Assembly: GCA_035466375.1 (NCBI GenBank)
Contig: DATIVB010000056.1
Location: 10,075-74,074, forward strand
Length of the DNA: 64,000 nt
Direction of reading: 5' to 3'
From: Chondromyces sp.
Lineage (GTDB): Bacteria > Acidobacteriota > Thermoanaerobaculia > Thermoanaerobaculales > Sulfomarinibacteraceae
The translations under genes were made by a program, and so were the position numbers. A model generated the notes under the pieces. The model worked only from the letters and a program-made list of their open reading frames with translations, was not told the DNA's origin and made no database searches. Below, one piece after another: positions 1-63,906 of the stretch (position 1 is its first letter; every line of letters starts with the position of its first letter).

Positions 1-73
1 AATCCGAAATCCGAAATGGGCGGGCGGGCGGCATTCCGAATTCCTAATTCCGAATTCCGAATTTCGAATTTCC
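1..73. repeat. Window-truncated modular simple-repeat element. It has AATCCGA x2 (1-17), the G-tract GGGCGGGCGGGCGG (18-31), then six ATTCCGA/ATTCCTA/ATTTCGA-type 7-mers (32-73).
   Basis: Read directly from the sequence. It has the same architecture (short AT-richer tandem units plus a G3N1 tract) as the elements at 1646-1893 and 62993-63867. Confidence 0.8.
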
Positions 74-78
74 CCCGT

Positions 79-87
79 CTGCTATCC
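79..87 (+). promoter_or_regulatory. Extended -10-like motif TGCTATCCT upstream of guaA
   Basis: TGn + TATCCT lies 20 nt upstream of the guaA ATG (107), immediately after the repeat element. No convincing -35 was seen. Confidence 0.3.
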
Positions 88-106
88 TCCGCCGCGGGGA
101 GCACTG

Positions 107-1639
107 ATGCAGCACCAGGTCATCCTCATCCTCGACTTCGGTTCGCAGTACACGCAGCTGATCGCGCGCCGCCTGCGCGAGCTCGGAGTCAAAACAGTGG
201 TCGAGCGCGGCGATCTCGAGGCCGCCCGGATCGAGGCGGCGGCACCGATCGCGGTGGTGCTCTCCGGGGGGCCTGCGAGCGTCTTCGAGGCCGGCGCGCT
301 GCAGGTCAGCCCCAAGGTCTTCGAGCTCGACGTGCCGGTGCTCGGCATCTGCTACGGCCTCCACCTCATGGCCCGCGACCTCGGCGGCGAGGTGCGCTCG
401 TCGAGCCGCCGCGAGTACGGCTTCGCCGAGCTCGAGGTGGTGGCGGAAGGACCGGTGTTCGGCGGCACGCCGCGCCGCCAGCCGGTGTGGATGAGCCACG
501 GCGACCTCGTGGTGCGGGTCCCGCCCGGCTTCGAGGTCCTGGCGCGCACCCCGACCACGGAGGCCGCCGCGGTCTTCGACCCGCAGCGGCGCTTTCTCGG
601 GCTGCAGTTCCACCCCGAGGTCCGGCACACCCCGCACGGCATGCGGGTGCTGGAGAGCTTCATCGAGCTCGCGGGGGCGCGCCGCGACTGGAGCCCGTCG
701 GTGATCCGGCAGGAGCTCGTGGCGCAGCTGGCGGCGCGGCTCGGCGAGGGGCGGGTGATCTGCGGCGTGTCCGGCGGGGTCGACTCGTCGGTGACGGCGA
801 TGCTCCTGCGGGAGGCGATCGGCGAGCGCCTGCTGCCGATCTTCGTCGACACCGGCCTGCTGCGCAAAGACGAGGGCGACCGGGTCGAACGGAGGTTCGC
901 AGAGTTCGGTCTGCAGCTCGACCGGATCGACGGCAGCGAGCGCTTCTTCGCCGCGCTCGAAGGAGTCGACGACCCCGAGGCCAAGCGGCGCATCATCGGC
1001 CGCGAGTTCGTGGAGATCTTCGAGGCCGAAGCGGCGCGCCACCCGGACGCCCGCTTCCTCGCGCAGGGAACGCTCTACCCCGACGTCATCGAGTCGTCCG
1101 GGGTGCGAGGCACCGCGGCGGTGATCAAGACCCACCACAACGTGGGCGGGCTGCCGGAGCGCCTCGGCCTCGAGCTCGTGGAGCCGCTGCGCGACCTCTT
1201 CAAGGACGAGGTACGCCGGGTGGGGGAGGAGCTCGGCCTGCCGCAGGACTTCGTGTGGCGCCACCCCTTCCCGGGCCCCGGCCTTGCGGTCCGAGTCCTC
1301 GGCGCCGTCGACCGCGCCCGCGTCAGGACCCTGCAGGAGGCCGATGCGATCGTCGTCGAGGAGATCCGTGCGGCCGGCCTCTACGACGACATCTCGCAGG
1401 CCCTGTGCGTGCTGCTGCCGGTCAAGAGCGTCGGCGTGATGGGCGACTCGCGGACCTACGAGAACGTGCTCGCGGTGCGGGCGGTGACGACCAGCGACTT
1501 CATGACCGCCGACTGGTACCGCTTCCCGCCCGAGGTTCTCGACCGCATCGCCCGCCGCGTCGTCAACGAGGTCAAGGGCATCAACCGCGTGGTCTACGAC
1601 GTCACGTCGAAGCCGCCCGGCACCATCGAGTGGGAGTAG
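107..1639 (+). CDS. guaA: GMP synthase (glutamine-hydrolysing)
   Basis: 510-aa ORF. It has an N-terminal class-I amidotransferase (ILILDFGSQYTQLIARRLRELGV, GICYG catalytic Cys, FHPE), the ATP-PPase SGGVDSS motif, and a C-terminal dimerisation domain ending KPPGTIEWE. Confidence 0.97.
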   Translation: MQHQVILILDFGSQYTQLIARRLRELGVKTVVERGDLEAARIEAAAPIAVVLSGGPASVFEAGALQVSPKVFELDVPVLGICYGLHLMARDLGGEVRSSSRREYGFAELEVVAEGPVFGGTPRRQPVWMSHGDLVVRVPPGFEVLARTPTTEAAAVFDPQRRFLGLQFHPEVRHTPHGMRVLESFIELAGARRDWSPSVIRQELVAQLAARLGEGRVICGVSGGVDSSVTAMLLREAIGERLLPIFVDTGLLRKDEGDRVERRFAEFGLQLDRIDGSERFFAALEGVDDPEAKRRIIGREFVEIFEAEAARHPDARFLAQGTLYPDVIESSGVRGTAAVIKTHHNVGGLPERLGLELVEPLRDLFKDEVRRVGEELGLPQDFVWRHPFPGPGLAVRVLGAVDRARVRTLQEADAIVVEEIRAAGLYDDISQALCVLLPVKSVGVMGDSRTYENVLAVRAVTTSDFMTADWYRFPPEVLDRIARRVVNEVKGINRVVYDVTSKPPGTIEWE

Positions 1640-1645
1640 CGCGCC

Positions 1646-1693
1646 GAATTCAGAATGAGGAATGAGGAATGAGGAATGCCTCCCACCCCCGCC
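1646..1693. repeat. Left arm of a modular inverted-repeat element: GAATGAGG-type 8-mers x3-4, then the C-tract CCTCCCACCCCCGCC
   Basis: Tandem gaatgaggaatgaggaatgaggaatg followed by cctcccacccccgcc. It is an imperfect reverse complement of 1831-1877. Confidence 0.8.
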
Positions 1694-1830
1694 AGGGAGT
1701 CCAGGTTCGTCGGATCGGATGTTCTTATCCGGCTCGATGCGCCTCGAGGACGTAGACCAGAGCCCACCGTCTCTTGCGACACGTTGAACGGTTCTGTCTG
1801 CGAAAGTTGCGGACCACATGCACGTCCTCC

Positions 1831-1893
1831 GGGGGGAAGGTCGGGATTTCCTAATTCCTCATTCCTCATTCCTAACTCGGTCCGGGTGGGTGG
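1831..1893. repeat. Right arm of the modular inverted-repeat element. It has a G-tract (GGGGGGAAGGTCGGG), CCTCATT/CCTAATT-type repeats, then GGGTGGGTGG.
   Basis: atttcctaattcctcattcctcattcctaact is the complement type of the left-arm repeats. It is flanked by G-runs and abuts the TAGAAT box. Confidence 0.8.
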
Positions 1894-1899
1894 TAGAAT
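1891..1899 (+). promoter_or_regulatory. Extended -10 promoter motif TGGTAGAAT
   Basis: TGn + TAGAAT lies 86 nt upstream of the ATG at 1985. The same TGnTAGAAT is seen at 63898-63906, and a TAGAAT hexamer occurs on the minus strand at 15792-15797. Confidence 0.4.
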
Positions 1900-1984
1900 G
1901 CCCCCCGCCGCCGGTTCAGCTTTACCCGGCGGCGCATCCACCGGGGCGGGGCGCCCCAGCGGTGGACACCCCTGGAGGACAATC

Positions 1985-3307
1985 ATGGCTCGGACGAAGG
2001 TCGTCATCATGGGCGCGGCCGGCCGCGACTTCCACAATTTCAACTGCCTGTACCGCGACAACGAGGCCTACGAGGTCGTCGCGTTCACGGCCACCCAGAT
2101 TCCGGACATCGAGGGCCGCACCTACCCGGCGGAGCTCGCGGGCTCGCTCTACCCCGACGGCATCCCGATCCATCCCGAGTCGGACCTCGAATCGCTGGTC
2201 CGGGAGCACCACGTGGATGAGGTGTGGTTCAGCTACTCCGACGTGCCGCACACCTATGTCATGAACATCGCCAGCCAGGTGATCGCATGGGGCGCGCACT
2301 TCGGCGTGTGCTCGGCGACCAGGACCATGATCGAGTCGAGCCTGCCGGTGATCGCCGTGACCGCGGTGCGCACCGGCGTCGGCAAGTCGCAGACCACGCG
2401 CTACGTCTCCCGGCTGCTCAAGGCGATGGGCAAGAAGGTGGTCGCGATCCGCCACCCCATGCCCTACGGCGACCTCGCGAAGCAGGCCTGCCAGCGGTTC
2501 GAGAACTACGAGGACCTCGACCGCCACCAGTGCACCATCGAGGAGCGCGAGGAGTACGAGCCCCACATCGACAACGGCTTCGTCGTCTACGCGGGCGTAG
2601 ACTACGAGAAGATCGTCCGCGAGGCCGAGAAGGAGGCCGAGGTCATCCTCTGGGACGGCGGCAACAACGACACCCCCTTCTACCGCCCCGACCTCCACAT
2701 CACGCTCGTGGACCCCCACCGCGCCGGCCACGAGCTGAGCTACTACCCCGGCGAGACGAACCTCCGCATGGCCGACCTGCTGATCGTCAACAAGGTCGAC
2801 ACCGCCGACCCGGTCAAGGTCGAGCAGGTTCTCGACACCTGCCGCACCGCCAACCCCGGCGCGCGGGTCATCAAGTGCCGCTCGCTGATCACCGTCTCGC
2901 AGCCCGAGCTGATCGCCGGCAAGAAGGCGCTGGTCGTCGAGGACGGGCCGACCCTCACTCACGGCGGCATGAGTTACGGCGCCGGCTGGTTCGCGGCCAA
3001 GAACGCAGGCGCGGCCGAGATCGTCGACGCCCGTCCCTATGCCGTGGGCAGCATCAAGGAGACGTACGAGAAGTACCCCAACGCGGCCAAGATCCTGCCT
3101 GCGATGGGCTACGGCGACGCCCAGGTGCGGGAGCTCGAGGAGACCATCAACTCGACGCCGGCCGACGTGGTGGTCGAGGGGACCCCGATCCAACTGTCGC
3201 GGATCCTCAAGGTCAACAAGCCCATTGCCGACGTGACATACGAGCTCGAGGAGGTCGAGCCGGGGACCATTGAGGAGATGGTGGCGAAGGCCGTCTCCAA
3301 GGCCTGA
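1985..3307 (+). CDS. COG2403-type P-loop protein (cyclic 2,3-diphosphoglycerate synthetase-like / predicted GTPase family)
   Basis: The ATG at 1985 (MARTKVVIMGAAGRDFHNF) follows a GGAGG SD. There is a Rossmann-like N-terminus, and VRTGVGKSQTTRYVSRLLKAMGKKVVAIRHPMPYGD resembles the COG2403 family as I recall it. The family assignment is from memory and was not searched. The upstream part of the 1676 ORF is repeat sequence and is not coding. Confidence 0.65.
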   Translation: MARTKVVIMGAAGRDFHNFNCLYRDNEAYEVVAFTATQIPDIEGRTYPAELAGSLYPDGIPIHPESDLESLVREHHVDEVWFSYSDVPHTYVMNIASQVIAWGAHFGVCSATRTMIESSLPVIAVTAVRTGVGKSQTTRYVSRLLKAMGKKVVAIRHPMPYGDLAKQACQRFENYEDLDRHQCTIEEREEYEPHIDNGFVVYAGVDYEKIVREAEKEAEVILWDGGNNDTPFYRPDLHITLVDPHRAGHELSYYPGETNLRMADLLIVNKVDTADPVKVEQVLDTCRTANPGARVIKCRSLITVSQPELIAGKKALVVEDGPTLTHGGMSYGAGWFAAKNAGAAEIVDARPYAVGSIKETYEKYPNAAKILPAMGYGDAQVRELEETINSTPADVVVEGTPIQLSRILKVNKPIADVTYELEEVEPGTIEEMVAKAVSKA

Positions 3308-3313
3308 GCGGCG

Positions 3314-4192
3314 ATGGCGACCGCGTCGTCCCGCTGGGTGTCGGTGGTGCTGTGGGTGGCGGCGTTCGCCGTCACCGTCATGCTGGCCGTGTTCCAGCGG
3401 ATGACCGGCCCGAGCTACCCCCTGCGAGGAGTGCTGCAACTGGCCGACAGCAGCGAGATACGTTACCGGCTGCCGCGCTCCAGCCAGGGCCGGGACTCCC
3501 TCGTGATCTCGGTGCCGAGGCTGCCGGGGACCGACGCCGCGGTCCTCGAGTGGCGCCGCTATCCCACCGACGAGCCGTATCGGCGCCTGCCCATGTTCGG
3601 AACGGAGGACGGCAGCTTTCGAGCCGAGATCCCACGCCAACCCGCGGCCGGCAAGGTCGAGTACGTCGTGCGGCTCGCGGGCGCAGGCCACGAGCGAGTG
3701 CTGCCCGCGGGCGAGCCGGTGGTGGCGCGCTTCCGCGACCCGGTGCCGGCGGCCGTCCTGGTGCCGCACATCATCCTGATCTTCGGGAGCATGCTGGTCT
3801 CGACGCGCGCCCTGCTCGAGGTCCTCAGGCGAGGTGCGCCCACAGCGAGGGGGCTCGTCCTCGTCGCCATGGGGCTGCTGATCTTCGGCGGCCTGGTGCT
3901 CGGGCCCGTGGTGCAGAAGTTCGCCTTCGGCGCCTACTGGACCGGCTGGCCGCTGGGCACCGACCTCACCGACAACAAGACCCTGTGGGCCTTTCTCGCC
4001 TGGCTTCCGGCGACGGTCGTGGCGCTGAGCGGCCGGCGCACGCGGTGGGCGGTCGTGGTCGGCTGGGTGGTGATGATGGGCGTGTTCCTGATCCCACACA
4101 GCCTCCGCGGCTCCGAGCTCGACTGGTCGCAGCCATCGGCGGTCGGCGAGGCCGCCGGAGAGGGCGGCGCAGGAGACGTGACTCCGCAGTGA
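3314..4192 (+). CDS. Hypothetical integral membrane protein (N-terminal anchor, extracytoplasmic domain, C-terminal multi-TM region)
   Basis: 292-aa ORF 6 nt after the previous stop. Hydrophobic segments include VVLWVAAFAVTVMLAV, VLVPHIILIFGSMLV, LVLVAMGLLIFGGLVLG and VVGWVVMMGVFLI. No family was recognised. Confidence 0.7.
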   Translation: MATASSRWVSVVLWVAAFAVTVMLAVFQRMTGPSYPLRGVLQLADSSEIRYRLPRSSQGRDSLVISVPRLPGTDAAVLEWRRYPTDEPYRRLPMFGTEDGSFRAEIPRQPAAGKVEYVVRLAGAGHERVLPAGEPVVARFRDPVPAAVLVPHIILIFGSMLVSTRALLEVLRRGAPTARGLVLVAMGLLIFGGLVLGPVVQKFAFGAYWTGWPLGTDLTDNKTLWAFLAWLPATVVALSGRRTRWAVVVGWVVMMGVFLIPHSLRGSELDWSQPSAVGEAAGEGGAGDVTPQ

Positions 4193-4670: not shown

Positions 4671-6294
4671 AGCGCGCGGGCTCCGGCTCCTGGGGCCGTG
4701 GACGGGTCTGCTGCTGCTCGCCGTGCTGGCGCTCGCGGCGTGGGCGTTGATGGTCTCACTCGCCGACCAGGCGCACCAGGCGTGGCCGGTGCGGGTCTTT
4801 CTGGTCGTCGCGATGGTCGTCGCCGTGGCCTACGTGGCGCTGGTCCACATTCCGCAGCGCCGGCTGGCGCAACGTCTTGCCGATCTGCAACAGCGCCACG
4901 ACGAGCAGTGCGCGGCGCTGATCTCGTCGCTCGAAGAGCTCCGCCACGGGGACCTGGTGGCGATGCTCGAGCCGACCGCGGTCCTGCCGGATGCCATGCG
5001 TGATTCGGTCGGCCTGGCGGCCCGGGCACAGGCCGCGCTGATCCAACAGATCCAGTCGTCGTCGGTCGAGGTGGCGGGGGCGGCGGGCACGGTGCAGCGG
5101 ACGTCCTCCGAGCTGGCGACGGCATCCAATCAGCAGGCCGCTGCGGTGATCGAAATCACCGCCAGCACCGAGGAGCTGGCCCGGACCGCCGGCCAGATCG
5201 CCTCCAACTCGGCCGCCCAGGCGCAACTGGCCGGGCGCTCGCAGTCGTCGGGCGACGAGGGCGCGGCCTCGGTGGAATCGGCGGTGGCGGGGGTTGAAGC
5301 GGTCCGCCGGCACATGGCGGGCATCGCGAGCCGGGCCGACACGCTCGGCCGCCGCTCGCGCGAGATCTTCCGCGTGCTCGACCTGGTCACCGAGATCTCC
5401 CAGGAGACCCACATCCTGGCCCTCAACGCGGCCATCGAAGCGGCGTCGGCCGGCGAGCACGGGGAGCGCTTCGCGGTGGTGGCCGCAGAGGTGCGCCGCC
5501 TCGCGGAACGCTCGCGCGAGTCGATCGACTCGGTGCGCGATCATCTCGACGAGTTCGCGGCCGCGATCCGCGGTGTGACGCTGGCGACCGAGGACGGGAG
5601 CAAGTCGGCGGAGCAGGTGCTGCGCCAGAGCCGCACCGCGCAGAGCGCGATTTCGGAGCTGCGCTCGGCGCTGACCGAGACCGCACAGGCCGCACGGGAG
5701 ATCTCCCTGGCCACCGAAGAGCAGCGGGCCGCCTCGGACCAGGTGGCGAGCGCGCTGCGCGAGGTCAGCGAGGTCATCCAGCGGATCGCCGACGGACTCG
5801 GGCGCTACACCGAGGCCGCCGAGCAGCTCAACGAGCTCGCCCTTTCCATCCAGCTCCTGACCCAGAGCTTCCGCATCGACTCGCCACACTCGCTGAAGAA
5901 CCAGCTCCTGCGCTGGACCGACCGGCTGCGCGACCTGTCGGGCAACCTCGAGGCCGTGGAGGGATCGCTGTCGGCGCTCCTCGAGGACCACCCTTTCCTC
6001 GAGGTGGTCTACCTGGTCGACCCGTCGGGGAGCATGGTCGCGTTCGCGGTCAACCGCGAGCTGGTGGGGTCGCGGCAGCTTCCCGGCAGTATCGCGGCCG
6101 GTCAGTCCTACGCCGACCGGCCCTGGTTCCAGGCGGTGGCGCGCGACCGGCGCTCGGCGGTGACGCCGATCTACAGCTCGTTGCTCACCGGGGACCACTG
6201 TTTCACGATCGCGGTGGCGATCCACGACGCGGACGGCGCGATGGCGGGCACCCTCGGCGTCGACGTCAATCTCCGCAACTGGACGGAGATCTGA
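4663..6294 (+). CDS. Methyl-accepting chemotaxis protein with two N-terminal TM helices, almost no periplasmic loop, and a C-terminal Cache/PDC-like domain
   Basis: TM1 and TM2 are separated by about 10 residues. The MCP signalling hairpin reads EITASTEELARTAGQIA...ILALNAAIEAASAGEHGERFAVVAAEVRRLAERS. The C-terminus reads YADRPWFQAV...VTPIYSSLLTGDHCFTIAVAIHDADGAMAGTLGVDVNL, which is a Cache-type motif. Confidence 0.9.
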   Translation: MTEARGLRLLGPWTGLLLLAVLALAAWALMVSLADQAHQAWPVRVFLVVAMVVAVAYVALVHIPQRRLAQRLADLQQRHDEQCAALISSLEELRHGDLVAMLEPTAVLPDAMRDSVGLAARAQAALIQQIQSSSVEVAGAAGTVQRTSSELATASNQQAAAVIEITASTEELARTAGQIASNSAAQAQLAGRSQSSGDEGAASVESAVAGVEAVRRHMAGIASRADTLGRRSREIFRVLDLVTEISQETHILALNAAIEAASAGEHGERFAVVAAEVRRLAERSRESIDSVRDHLDEFAAAIRGVTLATEDGSKSAEQVLRQSRTAQSAISELRSALTETAQAAREISLATEEQRAASDQVASALREVSEVIQRIADGLGRYTEAAEQLNELALSIQLLTQSFRIDSPHSLKNQLLRWTDRLRDLSGNLEAVEGSLSALLEDHPFLEVVYLVDPSGSMVAFAVNRELVGSRQLPGSIAAGQSYADRPWFQAVARDRRSAVTPIYSSLLTGDHCFTIAVAIHDADGAMAGTLGVDVNLRNWTEI

Positions 6295-6300
6295 GCGGCG

Positions 6301-8313
6301 GTGACGAGCGACCGCCGCGACGAGCTGCTGCCCCTCTTCCTCGACGAGGCGGGGGAGCGCCTGGAACGGCTCAACGAGCTGGTGCGGAGGGTTGACGACG
6401 ATCCGGAGGCCGCGGTCGCGGTGCGGCGCGAGCTGCACGCCCTCAAGGGCGCGAGCCGGATGATGGGCCTCGGAGAGTTGTCCGCCGTCTGCCACGAGGC
6501 GGAGGACGCGGTCGCGGCGGCCGCCGGCGGCGAGCGGCGCGAGCTCGCCGAGCACTGCGCCGAGATCGGCCGACAGCTGGATGAGCTGGGCGACGCCGCG
6601 GCGGCTTCCGGAACTGCCCCGGTGCGCCCGGGGACGCGCCCGAATGGTCCGTCGGACGGACGGCACGGAGGGCGGCGGGGCGAGATCCGCGTGCGGGCTG
6701 CGGTCGTCGACGAGCTGGCCGACCGTGGCGCTCGGCTGCGGGTGATCGCCGCGGCCGCGGGCGGGCTGGCGGACCGCGTGCTGCGGCTCGCGTCCCTGGC
6801 CGAGCTCGGAGTCGGGGAGCCCGAACCGAGGCAGGTGCTGGCGACGCTCGCGACCTCGCTGCGGCAGACGGCGCTGGAGATCGAGAACGGGCAGCGGATC
6901 TTCAGCCGCCTCTCGGAGCGGCAGCTGGAGACCCTGTTGCGCCTCCAGGTGCAATCCCTCGCGCCCTTCATGCGGACCCTGGCGGGGCACGCCCGCGAGC
7001 TGGCCGACTCGCTCGGCAAAGAGGTGGAGCTGCGCGTCGCTGCGGGCGAGGCCGAGCTCGACCGCCGCATCGTCAACACCCTCAGCGAGGCCTTTCTGCA
7101 CCTGGTGCGCAATGCCGTCGACCACGGCATCGAGCGCCCTGCGGAACGGAGGGCCGCGGGCAAGCCCGCAGCGGGGCTCATCCAGCTGCGCGCGGTCACC
7201 GAGGGCGACCGGGTGCGCTTGCAGGTGATCGACGACGGCCGCGGCATCGACCCGGCGGCGGTCGCAGCAGCCACGGTCGCACGCGGGCTGCTGGGGGCCG
7301 AGGACGCCGCGGAGCTGGGTCCGTCGGAAACCCTGCAGATGCTGATGCAACCCGGTTTCACGACCCGTGACGAGACCTCCGAGGTGTCGGGTCGCGGTAT
7401 CGGGCTCGATGCGGTCGCCGCGGCCGTCCGCGCCGTCGGAGGCGATGTCTGGCTGGAGTCGGAGCCGGGCAGGGGCACCGTGGTGACCGTCGAGGTCCCG
7501 GTCGCGCGGCGGGGAGAGCGGGTGCTCGTGCTGCGGGCCGGCGGTCACCTCCTGGCGTTGCCGGCGGCTCCGGTGCAGGCCTTCCGCCGCGTGCATCCGG
7601 GCGTCGTCGACGAAATCGACGGGAGGTACGTGGTCCGCCTGCGGGGGCGGACCATCGAGCCGAGCTTTCTCTCCGGCCCCGGGGGGCGATCCGGTCCGCA
7701 CGGCGTGCTCCTGGAGATGATGGTGGGCGGGACGGTGGTCGCGGTCGTGGCCGACGAGGTGGTGGGGGAGGAGGAGGTCATCGTGCGGCCGATGCCGCCG
7801 GCGGCAGGCGCTCCGCGCAGCGTCGAGGGGATCGCGCTGCTCGCCTCGGGTCGGCCGGTGGCGGTGCTGTCGCCGAGGCAACTGGTGCGGGGCGCCGACG
7901 TCGATGCCGTAGTGCGCGAGGACGGCAGTCGGACCGGAAAACCGTTGCGCGTCCTCCTCGTCGACGACTCCGAATCGACGCGGGAGATGTTCCGCCGTCT
8001 GCTCGAGGACGGCGGGTTCGCGGTGGTCAGCGTCGGTACCGCCGAGGAGGCGGTGCGCGCGCTCGACGGCGCCGAGTTCGACTGCATCGTGACCGATATC
8101 GAGATGCCCGGCATGAGCGGGCTCGATCTGACGAGGACGCTGCGCGCCGAACCGCGTTTCGCCGACCTGCCGGTGATCGTGGTCTCGACCCTCGACCGTC
8201 CGGCGGACCGCCTCGAAGGGCTCAAAGCGGGAGCGGACGCGTATCTGAGCAAGCAGGGCCTGGACGCGCGCGAGCTGGTGGCGCTGGTGGGGCGGGTCGG
8301 AGGCGCGGCGTGA
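6301..8313 (+). CDS. cheA: CheA histidine kinase fused to a C-terminal receiver domain (CheA-REC hybrid)
   Basis: GTG start. Domains read in order are HPt (ELHALKGASRMMG), HATPase (HLVRNAVDHGIE, DDGRGID, GRGIGLD), a CheW-like P5 domain, then REC (RVLLVDDSESTREMF...DCIVTDIEMPGMSG...ADAYLSK). Confidence 0.92.
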   Translation: MTSDRRDELLPLFLDEAGERLERLNELVRRVDDDPEAAVAVRRELHALKGASRMMGLGELSAVCHEAEDAVAAAAGGERRELAEHCAEIGRQLDELGDAAAASGTAPVRPGTRPNGPSDGRHGGRRGEIRVRAAVVDELADRGARLRVIAAAAGGLADRVLRLASLAELGVGEPEPRQVLATLATSLRQTALEIENGQRIFSRLSERQLETLLRLQVQSLAPFMRTLAGHARELADSLGKEVELRVAAGEAELDRRIVNTLSEAFLHLVRNAVDHGIERPAERRAAGKPAAGLIQLRAVTEGDRVRLQVIDDGRGIDPAAVAAATVARGLLGAEDAAELGPSETLQMLMQPGFTTRDETSEVSGRGIGLDAVAAAVRAVGGDVWLESEPGRGTVVTVEVPVARRGERVLVLRAGGHLLALPAAPVQAFRRVHPGVVDEIDGRYVVRLRGRTIEPSFLSGPGGRSGPHGVLLEMMVGGTVVAVVADEVVGEEEVIVRPMPPAAGAPRSVEGIALLASGRPVAVLSPRQLVRGADVDAVVREDGSRTGKPLRVLLVDDSESTREMFRRLLEDGGFAVVSVGTAEEAVRALDGAEFDCIVTDIEMPGMSGLDLTRTLRAEPRFADLPVIVVSTLDRPADRLEGLKAGADAYLSKQGLDARELVALVGRVGGAA

Positions 8314-15854: not shown

Positions 15855-15892
15855 GTTTCCACAAGATTTCCACAAGCGGTCGAAACTCCACA
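15855..15892 (+). promoter_or_regulatory. Cluster of three co-oriented DnaA-box-like 9-mers
   Basis: The three 9-mers are GTTTCCACA (15855-15863), ATTTCCACA (15866-15874) and AACTCCACA (15884-15892). The first two are each 8/9 matches to TTWTNCACA and form an 11-bp-spaced direct repeat TTTCCACAAG. Confidence 0.4.
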
Positions 15893-15900
15893 CCCGTGGC

Positions 15901-15953
15901 CGATATTTCAATGTCCGATAAGATATATTATGTAAACCTGAATATCTGATGAC
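15901..15953. other. Local AT-rich tract (candidate DNA-unwinding element or UP-like region)
   Basis: The stretch cgatatttcaatgtccgataagatatattatgtaaacctgaatatctgat has 36 of its first 50 nt as A/T by direct count. This contrasts strongly with the GC-rich surroundings. Confidence 0.5.
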
Positions 15954-16016
15954 GCCCTCGAACAGGCCGAAAACCCCTCGCGGCGATCTTGAACGACGGA
16001 ATTCCCTGCCCCTCAC

Positions 16017-62992: not shown

Positions 62993-63219
62993 AACGTCGT
63001 GACACGTTCGAACGTTCAAACGTTGCACGTTCCGCCCACCCACCCAAAACCACAGAGGCACAGAGGGCACAGAGGGAACACAGAGCCGCCCACCCACCCA
63101 GAACCACGAAGACACCAGGTCACGAAGAAATCACGAAGGCCGCCCGCCCGCCCCAAAACGCAAAGGCGCAGAGGCGCAAAGCCCGACCAGCCCTCCACCC
63201 ACGCAAAGACGCTGCAGCG
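62993..63219. repeat. Left arm of a large modular inverted-repeat element. It has four to five blocks of 7-8-bp tandem repeats (ACGTTC-, CACAGAGG-, CACGAAG-, GCGCAAAG/GCGCAGAG-type) separated by C-tracts (CCGCCCACCCACCC and similar).
   Basis: Read directly. The C-tracts are at 63032-63045, 63086-63099, 63140-63154 and 63182-63200. The blocks are imperfect reverse complements, in mirrored order, of those at 63591-63849. Confidence 0.85.
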
Positions 63220-63590
63220 AGCCACGAGAGTTCAGCGGTGTGACGAGGTTTCCGGCCGTCGGACGGCCGGAAACCGCCGGGACGGGACTCCGTGTCGAAC
63301 CCGAGCGTTCGCCCCGGAGTCCCGCCCAGACGGCCCGCGCTCTCGAAGAGCGCAGGCCTCGCCAGTTGTCATCTTCAATCACGAGGATGGAGATGGGACC
63401 TTCTCTACCATTGACAGTGGGAAGGGCGAGAGGCAGAACCGCCGTGCCCCGGGCCCGGCGGCCGGTGAGAAGCGCGGCGACGACGAACGCTCGCGTTCGG
63501 AGCTCGCCGCGCTTATCACCGGCGGCAGGCGATCCGATCGCCTGCCGTTCTGCCGCCACACTGCGGAAGAGCGCCCCTCCCGGCACCAGT
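63220..63590. other. Hairpin-rich core between the two arms (possible structured RNA or DNA element)
   Basis: There is a perfect 12-bp stem GGTTTCCGGCCG/CGGCCGGAAACC (63247-63275). A 9-bp stem GGGACTCCG/CGGAGTCCC has a nested GAAC/GTTC stem (63284-63323). Further stems are GCGCTC/GAGCGC (63337-63353), CGAACGC/GCGTTCG (63484-63499) and the 11-bp GGCAGGCGATC/GATCGCCTGCC (63524-63546). Confidence 0.5.
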
Positions 63591-63867
63591 CCCTTTGCGT
63601 CTTTGCATCTTTGCGCCTTTGCGTCTTCTCGTTTTCGGGTGGGCGGGTGGCCTTCGTGAATCCTTTGTGACTTGGTGCCTTCGTGTTTCTGGGTGGGTGG
63701 GCGGCTCTGCGACTCTGCGCCTCTGCGCCTCTGCGTTTCCGGGTGGGTGGGGGGCCTTCGTGATTTCTTCGTGTCTTCGTGCCTTCGTGGTTGCGACGTG
63801 GGCGGATGGGTGGGAACGTGCAACGTTCGAACGTTCGAACGTTCCAACGATGGCGGGCGGGCGGGTG
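63591..63867. repeat. Right arm of the large modular inverted-repeat element. It has CTTTGCG-, CTTCGTG-, CTCTGCG-, CTTCGTG- and AACGTTCG-type tandem repeats separated by five G3N1 tracts.
   Basis: The G-tracts are GGGTGGGCGGGTGG (63637-50), GGGTGGGTGGGCGG (63691-704), GGGTGGGTGGGGGG (63741-54), GGGCGGATGGGTGGG (63800-14) and GGCGGGCGGGCGGGTG (63852-67). Their starts are spaced 50-59 bp apart. Confidence 0.85.
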
Positions 63868-63897: not shown

Positions 63898-63906
63898 TGC
63901 TAGAAT
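63898..63906 (+). promoter_or_regulatory. Extended -10 promoter motif TGCTAGAAT
   Basis: TGn + TAGAAT lies 52 nt upstream of the ATG at 63958. It is the same motif as at 1891-1899 and lies directly downstream of the repeat element. Confidence 0.4.

What the first reader, a model, noticed from the sequence alone, without database searches (positions are those of the whole stretch)
1640..1900. Second, smaller copy of the same element grammar in the guaA / COG2403-gene spacer, ending in a TGnTAGAAT promoter
Seen in sequence: the left arm gaattcaGAATGAGGAATGAGGAATGAGGAATGcc plus CCTCCCACCCCCGCC (1646-1693) is an imperfect reverse complement of the right arm GGGGGGAAGGTCGGG plus atttCCTAATTCCTCATTCCTCATTCCTAact (1831-1877). 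Together they enclose a ~140-bp core closed by a 9-bp long-range complement (GAGGACGT near 1747 with ACGTCCTC near 1822). Next comes GGGTGGGTGG fused directly to TAGAAT (1891-1899: TGGTAGAAT).

The repeat unit (GAATGAGG) differs from those at the 63-kb locus, but the layout is the same: tandem 7-8-mers, a C-tract, a core, a G-tract, complementary 7-8-mers, a G-tract, then a promoter.

Inference: the two loci are members of one element family whose unit sequence is free to vary. This argues for selection on structure or periodicity rather than on a fixed binding sequence.
Basis: partly seen in the sequence, partly recalled or inferred. Interest (0 to 1): 0.55.

Follow-up and report, generated by a model that had tools for sequence, protein, structure and literature searches.

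The report
Fast-changing inverted tandem-repeat spacer element
The gap between two genes of an uncultured marine acidobacterium is filled by a pair of mirror-image short tandem repeats that nearly identical strains have swapped for different repeats of the same layout, while the promoter and RNA hairpin just downstream stay fixed; this is an unusual, undescribed variant of bacterial intergenic repeat DNA.

Summary
Arms 1644-1680 and 1844-1880 each carry 3.7 heptamers and are about 88% complementary (z about 14-19). TGGTAGAAT at 1891-1899 is a promoter conserved across relatives. The claimed core closure is only 8 bp and is at chance level.

The organism is a Thermoanaerobaculia (Sulfomarinibacter-like) MAG. 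Twelve orthologous guaA/cDPG-synthase-like spacers carry tandem 6-8-mer arrays that start 0-11 nt after the guaA stop codon and run up to the -10. In seven spacers the two arrays are inverted complements, each with a different unit.

Relatives with 92-94% identical third codon positions have the whole segment replaced, with the layout kept. Units are not free. A limited repertoire recurs across loci and species, up to 31/31 identity. The 63-kb element is about 90% conserved in a sister species.

Best reading (0.4): a satellite-like, recombining foldback repeat. Its arms would close the spacer into a long dsRNA stem in guaA read-through RNA, acting as an RNase III-type processing site or insulator ahead of an autonomous promoter.

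Rivals: selfish IVS/MITE-like DNA, paired protein operators, and non-B DNA.

The closest precedent is the inverted GGGAATC heptamer pairs of Xanthomonas. I class this as a new variant of a known kind.

The parts
107..1639 (+). guaA (GMP synthase). Its TAG stop at 1637-1639 is the left boundary of the variable segment.
   Evidence: Pfam GATase plus GMP_synt_C. Identity with L085 runs through the stop codon and then breaks down.
1644..1680 (+). Left arm: CCGAATTCA plus (GAATGAG)x3.7 (array 1653-1678). It starts 5 nt after the stop codon.
1679..1693 (+). C tract CCTCCCACCCCCGCC. It is homologous to the C tract of L085. It is only a weak complement of 1831-1845, and a 9/10 complement of 1884-1893.
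1694..1830 (.). Core or loop. It is not conserved in any relative and has no second copy, no RNA-family match and no significant structure of its own.
1831..1845 (+). G-rich tract GGGGGGAAGGTCGGG.
1844..1880 (+). Right arm: (TTCCTCA)x3.7 (array 1848-1873) plus AACTCGG. It is the reverse complement of the left arm. It is also 77% identical, as a direct repeat, to the guaA-upstream array at 38-68.
   Evidence: (I2, D1).
1884..1893 (+). (GGGT)2.5 tract abutting the -10.
1891..1899 (+). Extended -10 promoter TGGTAGAAT of the downstream gene. This is the right boundary of the variable segment.
   Evidence: TGnTAnnAT is conserved in about 20 orthologs at a fixed distance from the 5'UTR hairpin. It is rare in the window. 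No -35 was found.
1908..1932 (+). Conserved 5'UTR hairpin P1 (CCGCCGG / loop UUCAGCUUUAC / CCGGCGG). It is not part of the repeat element. It marks where conservation resumes.
   Evidence: no broken pairs, 2 compensatory pairs, 8 U.G variants.
1985..3307 (+). COG2403 / cyclic 2,3-diphosphoglycerate synthase-like GTPase gene.
1..88 (+). Right end of a sister element upstream of guaA: (AATCCGA)x2.4, GGGCGGGCGGGCGG, (ATTCCGA)x5.4, then TGCTATCCT (80-88).
63004..63865 (.). Large sister element. Nested inverted modules of 8-mer arrays are separated by (GGGY)3.5 / (RCCC)3.5 tracts around a roughly 400-nt core. TGCTAGAAT follows at 63898-63906.
   Evidence: (z -21).

Best explanation
**What it is (shown).** The guaA / cDPG-synthase-like spacer is filled, from the stop codon to the -10, by one member of a clade-specific class of satellite-like foldback repeats. 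The clade is Sulfomarinibacter-like Thermoanaerobaculia. Each element has two inverted arrays of a 6-8-nt unit, C/G tracts and an unconserved core.

The class evolves by concerted change of both arms and by wholesale, cassette-like replacement. It draws on a limited repertoire of modules that also occur at other loci. The promoter and the 5'UTR hairpin downstream are separate, conserved functional parts.

**How it most likely works (inferred).**
- guaA has no intrinsic terminator, so RNA polymerase reads into the spacer.
- The two arms then pair into a stem of about 33-37 bp with an 18-bp perfect run. This closes off the whole spacer as one double-stranded RNA domain.
- Such a stem is the kind of substrate RNase III cuts, and a barrier to 3' exonucleases.
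- The stem would therefore define the guaA 3' end and uncouple guaA from the downstream gene.
- The downstream gene is expressed from its own -35-independent promoter, which tolerates any upstream sequence.
- Only pairing matters in this model. Units can then be replaced, provided both arms change together.
For: **Arms**
- The arms are significant.

**Position across relatives**
- Arrays start 0-11 nt after the guaA stop in every one of the 12 array-bearing orthologs. They end just before the -10.
- In 20 kb around the gene in L086, L087 and L089, this spacer is the only non-coding 7-mer array locus. The site is therefore held over long divergence, as terminators are: conserved in place, not in sequence.
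- Sister lineages with short spacers (42-176 nt) place the -10 right after the stop.

**Pairing kept while the unit changes**
- Seven spacers keep inverted complementarity with six different units.
- Pairs are inverted and never merely direct, unless the unit is itself palindromic.

**Replacement**
- The window and L085 differ at 8% of third codon positions, yet both arms have changed in concert and the interior is unalignable.

**No alternative end to the guaA transcript**
- No canonical terminator is found in 1-2200.

**Precedents for tandem heptamers as an arm of an RNase III-cut RNA hairpin**
- The H. influenzae hmw 5'UTR (PMC12721329).
- The Coxiella 23S IVS (PMC4990558).
- A cargo-bearing sister element with array arms carries an IVS-type PF05635 gene (L096 3229-4110).
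Against: - No expression data exist, so transcription across both arms is assumed.
- There is no U tract.
- The loop between the arms is 50-270 nt.
- Of 20 arm mismatches in the significant pairs, 2 are G.U on the + strand, 4 are G.U on the - strand and 14 are neither. The adjacent genuine RNA hairpin shows 8 U.G and no broken pair.
- Five of the 12 orthologs have arrays without complementary arms.
- Sister elements lie between divergent genes (63 kb, and upstream of guaA), where no upstream gene reads in.
- Module sequences are conserved across species more than a pairing-only constraint predicts.
Confidence: 0.4

Rival explanations
1. This is selfish or neutral foldback DNA of an IVS/MITE-like kind. 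The arrays are terminal inverted repeats of small, mostly cargo-less elements. These elements spread or are exchanged by recombination or template switching. They persist because the zone between a stop codon and a -35-independent promoter is free of sequence constraint. Any RNA or DNA effect is incidental.
For: - Near-conspecific strains carry three different alleles at the same site.
- Identical or near-identical modules occur at different loci and in different species.
- The AACTCAAA allele is shared by L083 (99% aa to the window) and L004 (86% aa).
- The 63-kb element is absent in a 98% aa relative (L090). It differs by a precise 49-nt module indel and by module order in L091.
- The mismatch spectrum of the arms looks like random decay.
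- Short-read contigs repeatedly break inside arrays.
- L096 holds a 61-nt-armed element carrying a PF05635 IVS-protein gene.
Against: - No target-site duplication flanks the arms.
- No transposase or recombinase gene is associated with the element.
- No second copy of this element exists in 72 kb of the same genome or in 1.5 Mb of relatives.
- The same site is occupied in 12 species, while neighbouring intergenic regions are empty. That is unusual for random insertion.
- Bacterial deletion bias should remove 200-380 nt of useless DNA.
Confidence: 0.25
2. The two arrays are paired operators. Each tandem 7-8-bp unit binds one dimer of a ribbon-helix-helix-type or other oligomeric protein, as in MetJ metbox arrays or omega-protein heptads. 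The two inverted arrays are bridged by the protein, which loops out the core and controls the adjacent -10.
For: - There are 3-6 tandem units of 7-8 bp abutting a promoter that lacks a -35.
- Both arrays always carry the same unit.
- Array sequences are conserved across species, including their irregular variant order: 31/31 identity and about 90% at the 63-kb locus.
- There is no RNA wobble signature.
- The core is unconstrained, as a loop would be.
- Several units contain 6-bp palindromes: GAATTC, GTCGAC, TTCGAA/AACGTT, GATC.
- The elements also occur between divergent promoters.
Against: - At least a dozen unit types appear in a small sample, which would need as many specific proteins.
- A housekeeping spacer swaps unit type between near-identical strains.
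- The promoter works in relatives without any array.
- The strictly nested palindromic order with (GGGY)n punctuation at 63 kb looks like hairpin logic rather than independent operators.
- No candidate binding protein was identified.
Confidence: 0.15
3. This is a DNA-level non-B element. The tandem arrays would form slipped DNA, the G/C tracts would form quadruplex or i-motif, and the inverted repeats would absorb or transmit transcription-driven supercoiling upstream of promoters. Alternatively, the G tracts would seed gene conversion that shuffles the modules.
For: - (GGGY)n tracts are five-fold enriched and confined to the elements. G is always on the strand of the gene they face.
- The elements sit upstream of promoters and between divergent genes, where negative supercoiling is highest.
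- The arrays have lower G+C than the 70% G+C genome.
- Modules bounded by G tracts are the units that are shared and inserted or deleted.
- Xanthomonas heptamer arrays form G4 in vitro (PMC4692102).
Against: - At this locus no tract has four G3 runs (GGGTGGGTGG; GGGGGGAAGGTCGGG). A canonical quadruplex is therefore not predicted.
- By established knowledge, 171 nt between the arms makes cruciform extrusion from duplex DNA very unfavourable.
- Several orthologs (L086, L089) have arrays and arms but no G tract.
Confidence: 0.1
4. This is a chance similarity or an assembly artefact of a short-read metagenome.
For: Repeats and palindromes can be mis-assembled, and contigs often end inside these arrays.
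Against: - The same sequence occurs in an independent assembly (L001).
- The same grammar appears in more than 12 independent MAGs and contigs. These include long-read assemblies (L003/L096, a 766-kb contig).
- Shuffles never reach the observed scores.
Confidence: 0.02

Closest known systems
Intergenic heptameric SSR arrays of Xanthomonas (GGGAATC) and Nostoc (GGGGAYT), including 70-75 inverted pairs per Xanthomonas genome (Rehm et al. 2015, PMC4692102)
   Same: - Both have tandem 7-nt units, about 4 copies per array, in non-coding DNA.
[quoted passage not shown]
- They often come as convergent inverted pairs, and that type is preserved between species.
- Length and sequence vary between close relatives.
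- The units are similar (GGGAATC against GGAATTC / GGAATGA / GGATTTC here).
- The function is unknown.
   Different: - Xanthomonas uses one genome-wide unit that itself supplies the G tracts.
- Here there are many unit types, separate (GGGY)n punctuation tracts and nested multi-module palindromes.
- Here the whole element is replaced between near-conspecific strains.
- Here the elements also occur between divergent genes, where the Xanthomonas repeats are depleted.
H. influenzae hmw 5'UTR heptamer SSR hairpin processed by RNase III (PMC12721329)
   Same: Tandem heptamers form one arm of a long RNA hairpin with a complementary region. Expression depends on double-stranded RNA processing.
   Different: - There the repeat lies in the 5'UTR of the regulated gene, and copy number drives phase variation.
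- Here the arrays lie upstream of the downstream gene's -10, in the guaA 3' region.
- Here both arms are arrays.
- Nothing here has been tested experimentally.
23S rRNA intervening sequences (IVS) with S23p/PF05635 ORF (Coxiella, Leptospira; PMC4990558)
   Same: - Both are selfish foldback elements closed by a long stem that RNase III cuts.
- Both have tandem heptamers at the stem with strain-variable copy number.
- In both the core is dispensable.
- A sister element in L096 carries a PF05635 gene between array arms.
   Different: - This element is not in an rRNA gene.
- This copy has no ORF.
- The link to the L096 element is by layout and by one array type shared with the 63-kb locus, not by sequence homology to 1640-1900.
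MITEs and mosaic intergenic repeats (Neisseria Correia elements, pneumococcal BOX, REP/BIME) - comparison from my own knowledge
   Same: - They are small intergenic elements with inverted ends.
- They have a modular build with a variable number of internal units (BOX).
- They can supply promoters, terminators and RNase III sites (Correia).
   Different: - Those families have a conserved sequence in tens to hundreds of copies per genome, and MITEs have target-site duplications.
- Here copies share grammar and some modules, but not an overall consensus.
- No duplication flanks the arms here.
Tandem operator arrays of ribbon-helix-helix proteins (MetJ 8-bp metboxes; omega heptads of pSM19035) - from my own knowledge
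   Same: There are 2-10 contiguous 7-8-bp units next to or over promoters, in direct or inverted orientation. Some units are palindromic (GAACGTTC against AGACGTCT).
   Different: Those systems use one unit per regulator with a known protein. Here there are many units and no protein, and the two arrays are 50-270 bp apart.

Membership tests
Intrinsic (Rho-independent) terminator | Short G+C-rich stem with a 3-8-nt loop, followed by a U tract | tested here: not met
   The scan of 1-2200 finds none on either strand. The arms are A+T-rich and 171 nt apart, and are followed by GGUCCGGGUGGG.
MITE (e.g. Correia-like) | Terminal inverted repeats | tested here: met
   Arms of 33-37 nt at 86-88%.
MITE (e.g. 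Correia-like) | Target-site duplication flanking the inverted repeats | tested here: not met
   The flanks are ...TAGCGCG | and | TCCGGGT..., with no direct repeat.
MITE (e.g. Correia-like) | Many copies per genome sharing a consensus sequence | tested here: inconclusive
   No second copy of the arms or core is found in 72 kb of this genome or in about 1.5 Mb of relatives. Single modules recur elsewhere. No whole genome was available.
REP/BIME/REPIN | 20-40-nt imperfect palindromes of one conserved sequence, dispersed, and often partnered with a RAYT transposase | tested here: not met
   The arms are tandem heptamers unique to this locus. No conserved palindromic unit is shared by the three elements. 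RAYT presence is not testable on 72 kb.
Long-unit (heptameric) intergenic SSR arrays, Xanthomonas/Nostoc type | [quoted passage not shown] | tested here: met
   3.7 copies of a 7-nt unit start 14 nt after the stop (the arm starts at 5 nt), with a partner array inverted. The criteria come from PMC4692102.
Long-unit (heptameric) intergenic SSR arrays, Xanthomonas/Nostoc type | One genome-wide G-rich unit (GGGNATC) able to form a quadruplex by itself | tested here: not met
   The unit GAATGAG has no G3 run. At least 12 unit types are seen in the clade.
Canonical G-quadruplex motif | Four runs of at least three G separated by 1-7 nt | tested here: not met
   1884-1893 has two G3 runs plus GG. 1831-1845 reads G6, GG, G3. 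Sister elements have GGGYGGGYGGGYGG, which is three G3 runs plus GG.
23S-IVS-like foldback element | Long stem from inverted ends enclosing a dispensable core, often with an S23p/PF05635 ORF | tested here: inconclusive
   The stem and a dispensable core are present. This copy has no ORF. PF05635 is found only in the sister element in L096.
23S-IVS-like foldback element | Excision of the stem by RNase III | not testable with these tools
   This needs RNA end mapping or an in vitro cleavage assay.
Ribbon-helix-helix operator array | Contiguous 7-8-bp units at a promoter | tested here: met
   The right array spans about -20 to -50 relative to the -10.
Ribbon-helix-helix operator array | A cognate DNA-binding protein | not testable with these tools
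   No candidate was identified. This needs EMSA or pull-down.
Any Rfam RNA family / tRNA / tmRNA | Covariance-model or ARAGORN match | tested here: not met
   There are no matches at gathering score in the window. Only chance-level hits (E >= 0.77) occur in 1600-2000. No tRNA or tmRNA is found.
Extended -10 (TGn) sigma-70-type promoter | TGnTAnnnT, conserved in orthologs at a fixed distance from the transcript's first conserved feature | tested here: met
   TGGTAGAAT here. TGnTAnnAT lies 7-9 nt upstream of the P1 hairpin in about 20 orthologs. The transcription start itself is not mapped.

The most novel reading that the evidence does not exclude
Sulfomarinibacter-like Thermoanaerobaculia may possess a genome-wide system of G-tract-punctuated tandem-array cassettes. 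In this reading, the cassettes are copied between intergenic loci and between strains by short-patch gene conversion, seeded at the (GGGY)n tracts. This would make the region between stop codons and -35-less promoters a hypervariable, exchangeable regulatory or RNA-processing module. It would be a bacterial analogue of cassette-based variation, acting on non-coding DNA rather than on surface-protein genes.
Probability: 0.15. Interest if true: 0.85.

Novelty: new variant of a known kind. Interest (0 to 1): 0.6.

Why it matters
If the class is real genome-wide, it adds a new type of structured intergenic repeat from a poorly studied, uncultured phylum. It is defined by layout (inverted tandem arrays plus G-tract punctuation) rather than by a consensus sequence.

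Its turnover is far faster than neutral substitution at one site, yet it is strongly conserved at another.

It offers a natural test of two questions:
- whether heptamer-type repeats, long noted in Xanthomonas, cyanobacteria and Beggiatoaceae without a function, act as RNA-processing stems, protein operators or selfish DNA;
- how both arms of a palindrome evolve in concert.

In practice these arrays break short-read assemblies, and consensus-based repeat finders will miss them.

The work also exposes a conserved 5'UTR hairpin upstream of a cDPG-synthase-like gene. This hairpin is a candidate new cis-regulatory RNA.

Tried and rejected
**Searches that found nothing**
- Known RNA families: Rfam at gathering score and at E <= 10 gives nothing meaningful. 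There is no tRNA or tmRNA.
- Canonical terminator or -35/-10 promoter: none found.
- The core as an sRNA or small gene: it has no conservation and no second copy, and its fold z-score is only -1.9.
- MITE with target-site duplication: there is no duplication and no multicopy consensus.
- Additional PF05635 genes next to arrays: only one was found in 1.5 Mb.
- Literature searches for a prior description in Acidobacteriota or Thermoanaerobaculia: none found.

**Tests that gave no signal**
- A strand-specific RNA wobble signature in the arms: 2 against 4 against 14 at the guaA spacers, and 6 against 9 against 7 at the 63-kb arms. There is no signal for either strand.
- A direct rather than inverted relation of the arrays: rejected, except where the unit is palindromic.

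**Ideas considered by eye and dropped**
- CsrA-type GGA repeats. The left arrays of several orthologs contain GGA every 7 nt, and L003 even has CAGGAUG x4. The idea does not extend to GTCGACA, GCGTCC or the 63-kb octamers.
- Arrays as tandem restriction sites or palindromes. Only 4 of about 14 unit types contain a 6-bp palindrome, which is a weak excess.
- A parS-like half site in L009.
- UP-element or -35 mimicry. There is no consistent match, and relatives lacking arrays keep the promoter.

**Tool problems**
More orthologs came from the search for homologous proteins plus look-up of encoding contigs instead.
Full report
**1. The observation**

- Tandem Repeats Finder gives GAATGAG x3.7 at 1653-1678 and TTCCTCA x3.7 at 1848-1873.
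- The repeat finder gives arms 1644-1676 / 1848-1880 of 33 nt at 88% complementarity, 171 nt apart.
- A gapped alignment of the left half of the spacer against the reverse complement of the right half scores 46, against 16 +/- 3 for shuffles. The z-score is 14-19.
- The 261-nt stretch folds with the arms paired at -117.8 kcal/mol. The z-score is -4.6, and 0 of 200 shuffles fold as well.
- GGGTGGGTGG at 1884-1893 runs into TGGTAGAAT at 1891-1899.
- TGNTAGAAT occurs twice in the 64 kb, against 0.14 expected. Both copies lie just after an array element.
- GGGYGGGYGG occurs 17 times against 3.3 expected. Fifteen of these lie inside the three array elements of the window.

Three details do not hold.
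- The '9-bp' closure of the core is 8 bp, does not extend, and is about what chance gives.
- The core alone has a fold z-score of only -1.9.
- The C tract and the inner G tract are only about 60% complementary.

A third element, cut by the window start, is complete in an overlapping contig (L001 7570-8100).

**2. Organism and genes**

The flanking genes are guaA and a COG2403 / cyclic 2,3-diphosphoglycerate synthase-like GTPase. The closest genomes are MAGs of Thermoanaerobaculia, 'Candidatus Sulfomarinibacter(aceae)', within Acidobacteriota. The window has 70% G+C.

**3. Orthologous spacers**

guaA and the COG2403 gene are neighbours throughout the class.

In more distant members (L010, L011, L013, L017, L018, L023) the spacer is 42-176 nt. 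It has no arrays, and the -10 comes right after the stop codon.

In twelve members of the Sulfomarinibacter-like group the spacer is 256-464 nt. These are the window, L003, L004, L005, L006, L008, L009, L014, L085, L086, L087/L088 and L089. In each:
- tandem 6-8-mer arrays begin 0-11 nt after the guaA stop;
- a second array ends shortly before a TGnTAnnAT -10.

In seven of them the two arrays are inverted complements, with z-scores of 9-24. The units are:
- window: GAATGAG;
- L085: GGATTTS;
- L086: GGAATTM;
- L087: GTCGACA;
- L089: GCGTCC;
- L003: GGATGCA;
- L005: a partial contig.

The relation is inverted. It is direct only where the unit is itself palindromic. In L004, L006, L008, L009 and L014 arrays are present but the arms are not significantly complementary.

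In the 20 kb around the gene in L086, L087 and L089, this spacer is the only non-coding 7-mer array locus.

**4. Turnover**

Three close relatives were found.
- L085: 95.8% nt identity in the COG2403 gene, with third codon positions 91.6% identical.
- L083: 97.5% nt identity, third positions 94.1%.
- L084: 98.6% nt identity.

In L085, identity with the window runs through the guaA stop codon. For both L085 and L083 it resumes at GTGGTA of the -10. The L083 contig starts inside the spacer, so its left boundary is not seen. The 5'UTR is 81/85 identical to that of L085. Between those boundaries the sequence is replaced.
- L085 has (GGATTTS)x5, a C tract, an unrelated core of about 95 nt, a G tract and (AAATCCG)x4.5.
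- L083 has a G tract and (AACTCAAA)x3-4.
- The interior is barely more alignable than shuffled sequence.
- The -10 also differs (TATCAT against TAGAAT).

Only the frame of the left module (five heptads plus the C tract) lines up. So the grammar is kept while the content changes much faster than neutral sites do.

**5. The units are not free**
- The 31-nt array upstream of guaA in the window (ATTCCGAATTCCTAATTCCGAATTCCGAATT) is 31/31 identical, as reverse complement, to the guaA-downstream array of L086. That species is 88% identical in protein. The match includes the order of variant units.
- The 54-nt module GTGGGYGGGCGG-(AAATCCG)4.5-GGRCGGGCG is 91% identical between the window's guaA-upstream element and the right arm of L085's spacer.
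- L083 shares its AACTCAAA module with L004, which is 86% identical in protein.
- An array in L008 matches a 63-kb array.
- The guaA heptads are variants of GGAWKNN, and the 63-kb octamers are variants of CCTYTGYG.
- At the 63-kb locus, a species with 87% identical flanking protein (L091) keeps the arrays, the G tracts and two core hairpins at about 90% nt identity. It differs by a precise 49-nt module indel and by a different innermost array.
- A 98% relative (L090) lacks the big element and keeps only the promoter-proximal GAACGTTC array.
- Short-read contigs repeatedly end inside arrays. This is expected for sequences that are variable in the population or repeated in the genome.

**6. What is conserved next to the element**

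The -10 (TGnTAnnAT) lies 7-9 nt upstream of a hairpin. In about 20 orthologs the hairpin stem is CCGCCGG/CCGGCGG and its loop is invariant, UUCAGCYUUACC. In 19 aligned sequences no pair is broken, two pairs show compensatory changes, and there are eight U.G variants. This supports the promoter call.

The hairpin also gives an internal control. The genuine RNA hairpin shows the wobble signature. The arms of the repeat element do not. Of their 20 mismatches, 2 are G.U on the + strand, 4 are G.U on the - strand and 14 are neither. At the 63-kb arms the counts are 6, 9 and 7.

**7. Known families**
- No Rfam family, tRNA or tmRNA matches.
- There is no canonical terminator and no -35.
- There is no target-site duplication and no multicopy consensus, so this is not a standard MITE or REP.

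The closest published precedent is the Xanthomonas/Nostoc heptamer repeats. These have about four copies per array, are non-coding, lie within 50 nt of stop codons on the sense strand, and form 70-75 inverted pairs per Xanthomonas genome. The pair type is preserved between species, the content varies between close relatives, and no function is known (PMC4692102). The units are even similar (GGGAATC against GGAATTC/GGAATGA).

Two systems show tandem heptamers acting as an arm of an RNA hairpin cut by RNase III.
- The H. influenzae hmw 5'UTR (PMC12721329).
- The Coxiella 23S rRNA intervening sequence, a selfish foldback element with an S23p ORF and a strain-variable number of heptamers (PMC4990558).

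A sister element lies in the long-read genome of L003 (L096 3229-4110). It has 61-nt arms with outer (GAACGTTC)x4 arrays that abut two stop codons. Its 760-nt core carries a PF05635 (23S_rRNA_IVP/S23p) gene, with E = 4e-17. It is the only such gene in the 1.5 Mb held, so this is a lead, not a proof.

**8. Mechanism**

Shown:
- the anatomy;
- the positional conservation;
- the concerted change of both arms;
- the cassette-like replacement;
- the shared repertoire of modules;
- the conserved promoter and 5'UTR.

Inferred, and my best reading at 0.4:
- guaA transcription reads into the spacer, because no terminator is present;
- the arms pair into a double-stranded RNA stem of about 33-37 bp with an 18-bp perfect run, closing off the spacer;
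- this stem acts as an RNase III-type processing site or a 3' barrier that separates guaA from the independently promoted downstream gene;
- only pairing is needed, so units can be swapped if both arms change together.

Against this reading:
- there are no expression data and no U tract;
- the loops are long;
- there is no wobble signature;
- arms are missing in 5 of 12 orthologs;
- sister elements lie between divergent genes;
- some modules are conserved at the sequence level.

Rivals:
- selfish or neutral IVS/MITE-like foldback DNA, tolerated in the unconstrained zone upstream of a -35-independent promoter (0.25);
- paired protein operators with looping (0.15);
- non-B DNA, supercoil or G-tract-seeded gene conversion (0.1);
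- artefact (0.02).

**9. Verdict**

This is a real and statistically strong feature. Pairing is kept, but the unit is not free.

It is a new variant of a known but functionally unexplained kind, namely intergenic heptamer-type repeat pairs. Four properties are unusual:
- many unit types;
- (GGGY)n punctuation;
- nested modules;
- replacement between near-identical strains alongside strong conservation at another locus.

Interest: 0.6.

Noticed in passing
window 1908-1932 (with a variable second hairpin at about 1936-1967 and the SD at 1974-1979): A conserved 5'UTR hairpin lies upstream of the cDPG-synthase-like gene. It has a 7-bp stem and an invariant loop, UUCAGCYUUACC. It starts about 8 nt after the -10 and is present in about 20 Thermoanaerobaculia orthologs. 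No pair is broken, two pairs are compensatory, and there are 8 U.G variants. It has no Rfam match. It is a candidate new cis-regulatory RNA.
   Followed up: partly
window 63244-63326: Two hairpins in the core of the 63-kb element are about 93% identical to L091 1-84, although the flanking protein is only 87% identical. One is GGGACTCCG...CGGAGTCCC and the other is GGTTTCCGGCCGTCGGACGGCCGGAAACC. This may be a structured RNA or a binding platform.
   Followed up: partly
L096 3229-4110: This is a foldback element in the long-read genome of L003. Its 61-nt arms are 82% complementary. Outer (GAACGTTC)x4 arrays abut the stop codons of two convergent genes. The 760-nt core carries a PF05635 (23S rRNA intervening-sequence protein) gene. 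Two more GAACGTTC-type arrays lie at 4082-4110 and 6374-6403.
   Followed up: partly
window 63004-63032 and 63814-63849; L090 85-110; L091 about 270-300; L095 about 5955-5985: The palindromic octamer array (GAACGTTC)n next to the start of the LpxH-like/murA operon is kept in all relatives examined. It is kept even where the rest of the big element is absent (L090) or degenerate (L095). This looks like a sequence-specific operator or promoter element.
   Followed up: partly
window 22-63 and 1647-1688: guaA itself is bracketed by related inverted modules, a G tract plus (ATTCCNN)n upstream and (NNGGAAT)n plus a C tract downstream. They are 81% complementary over 42 nt and 1583 nt apart. The upstream array is also a 77% direct repeat of the right arm at 1845-1875 (I1 and D1).
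   Followed up: no
starts of L002, L005, L007, L012, L082, L083, L092, L093, L094: Independent short-read contigs end inside the arrays or G tracts of these elements. This suggests population heterogeneity or dispersed copies. It means such loci are under-represented in short-read MAGs.
   Followed up: partly
window 15856-15962: This is an A+T-rich island in a 70% G+C genome. It contains the 11-mer TTTCCACAAGA x1.9 and a stretch of about 60 nt with under 40% G+C. It was not examined.
   Followed up: no
L001 7700-7945 (upstream of window start): The guaA-upstream element contains a further inverted pair of 8-9-mer arrays, CAGTGACAG/TGGCAG... against CTGTCACTG/CTGCCA.... They lie around a core of about 70 nt, inside the AAATCCG and ATTCCGA modules.
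   Followed up: no
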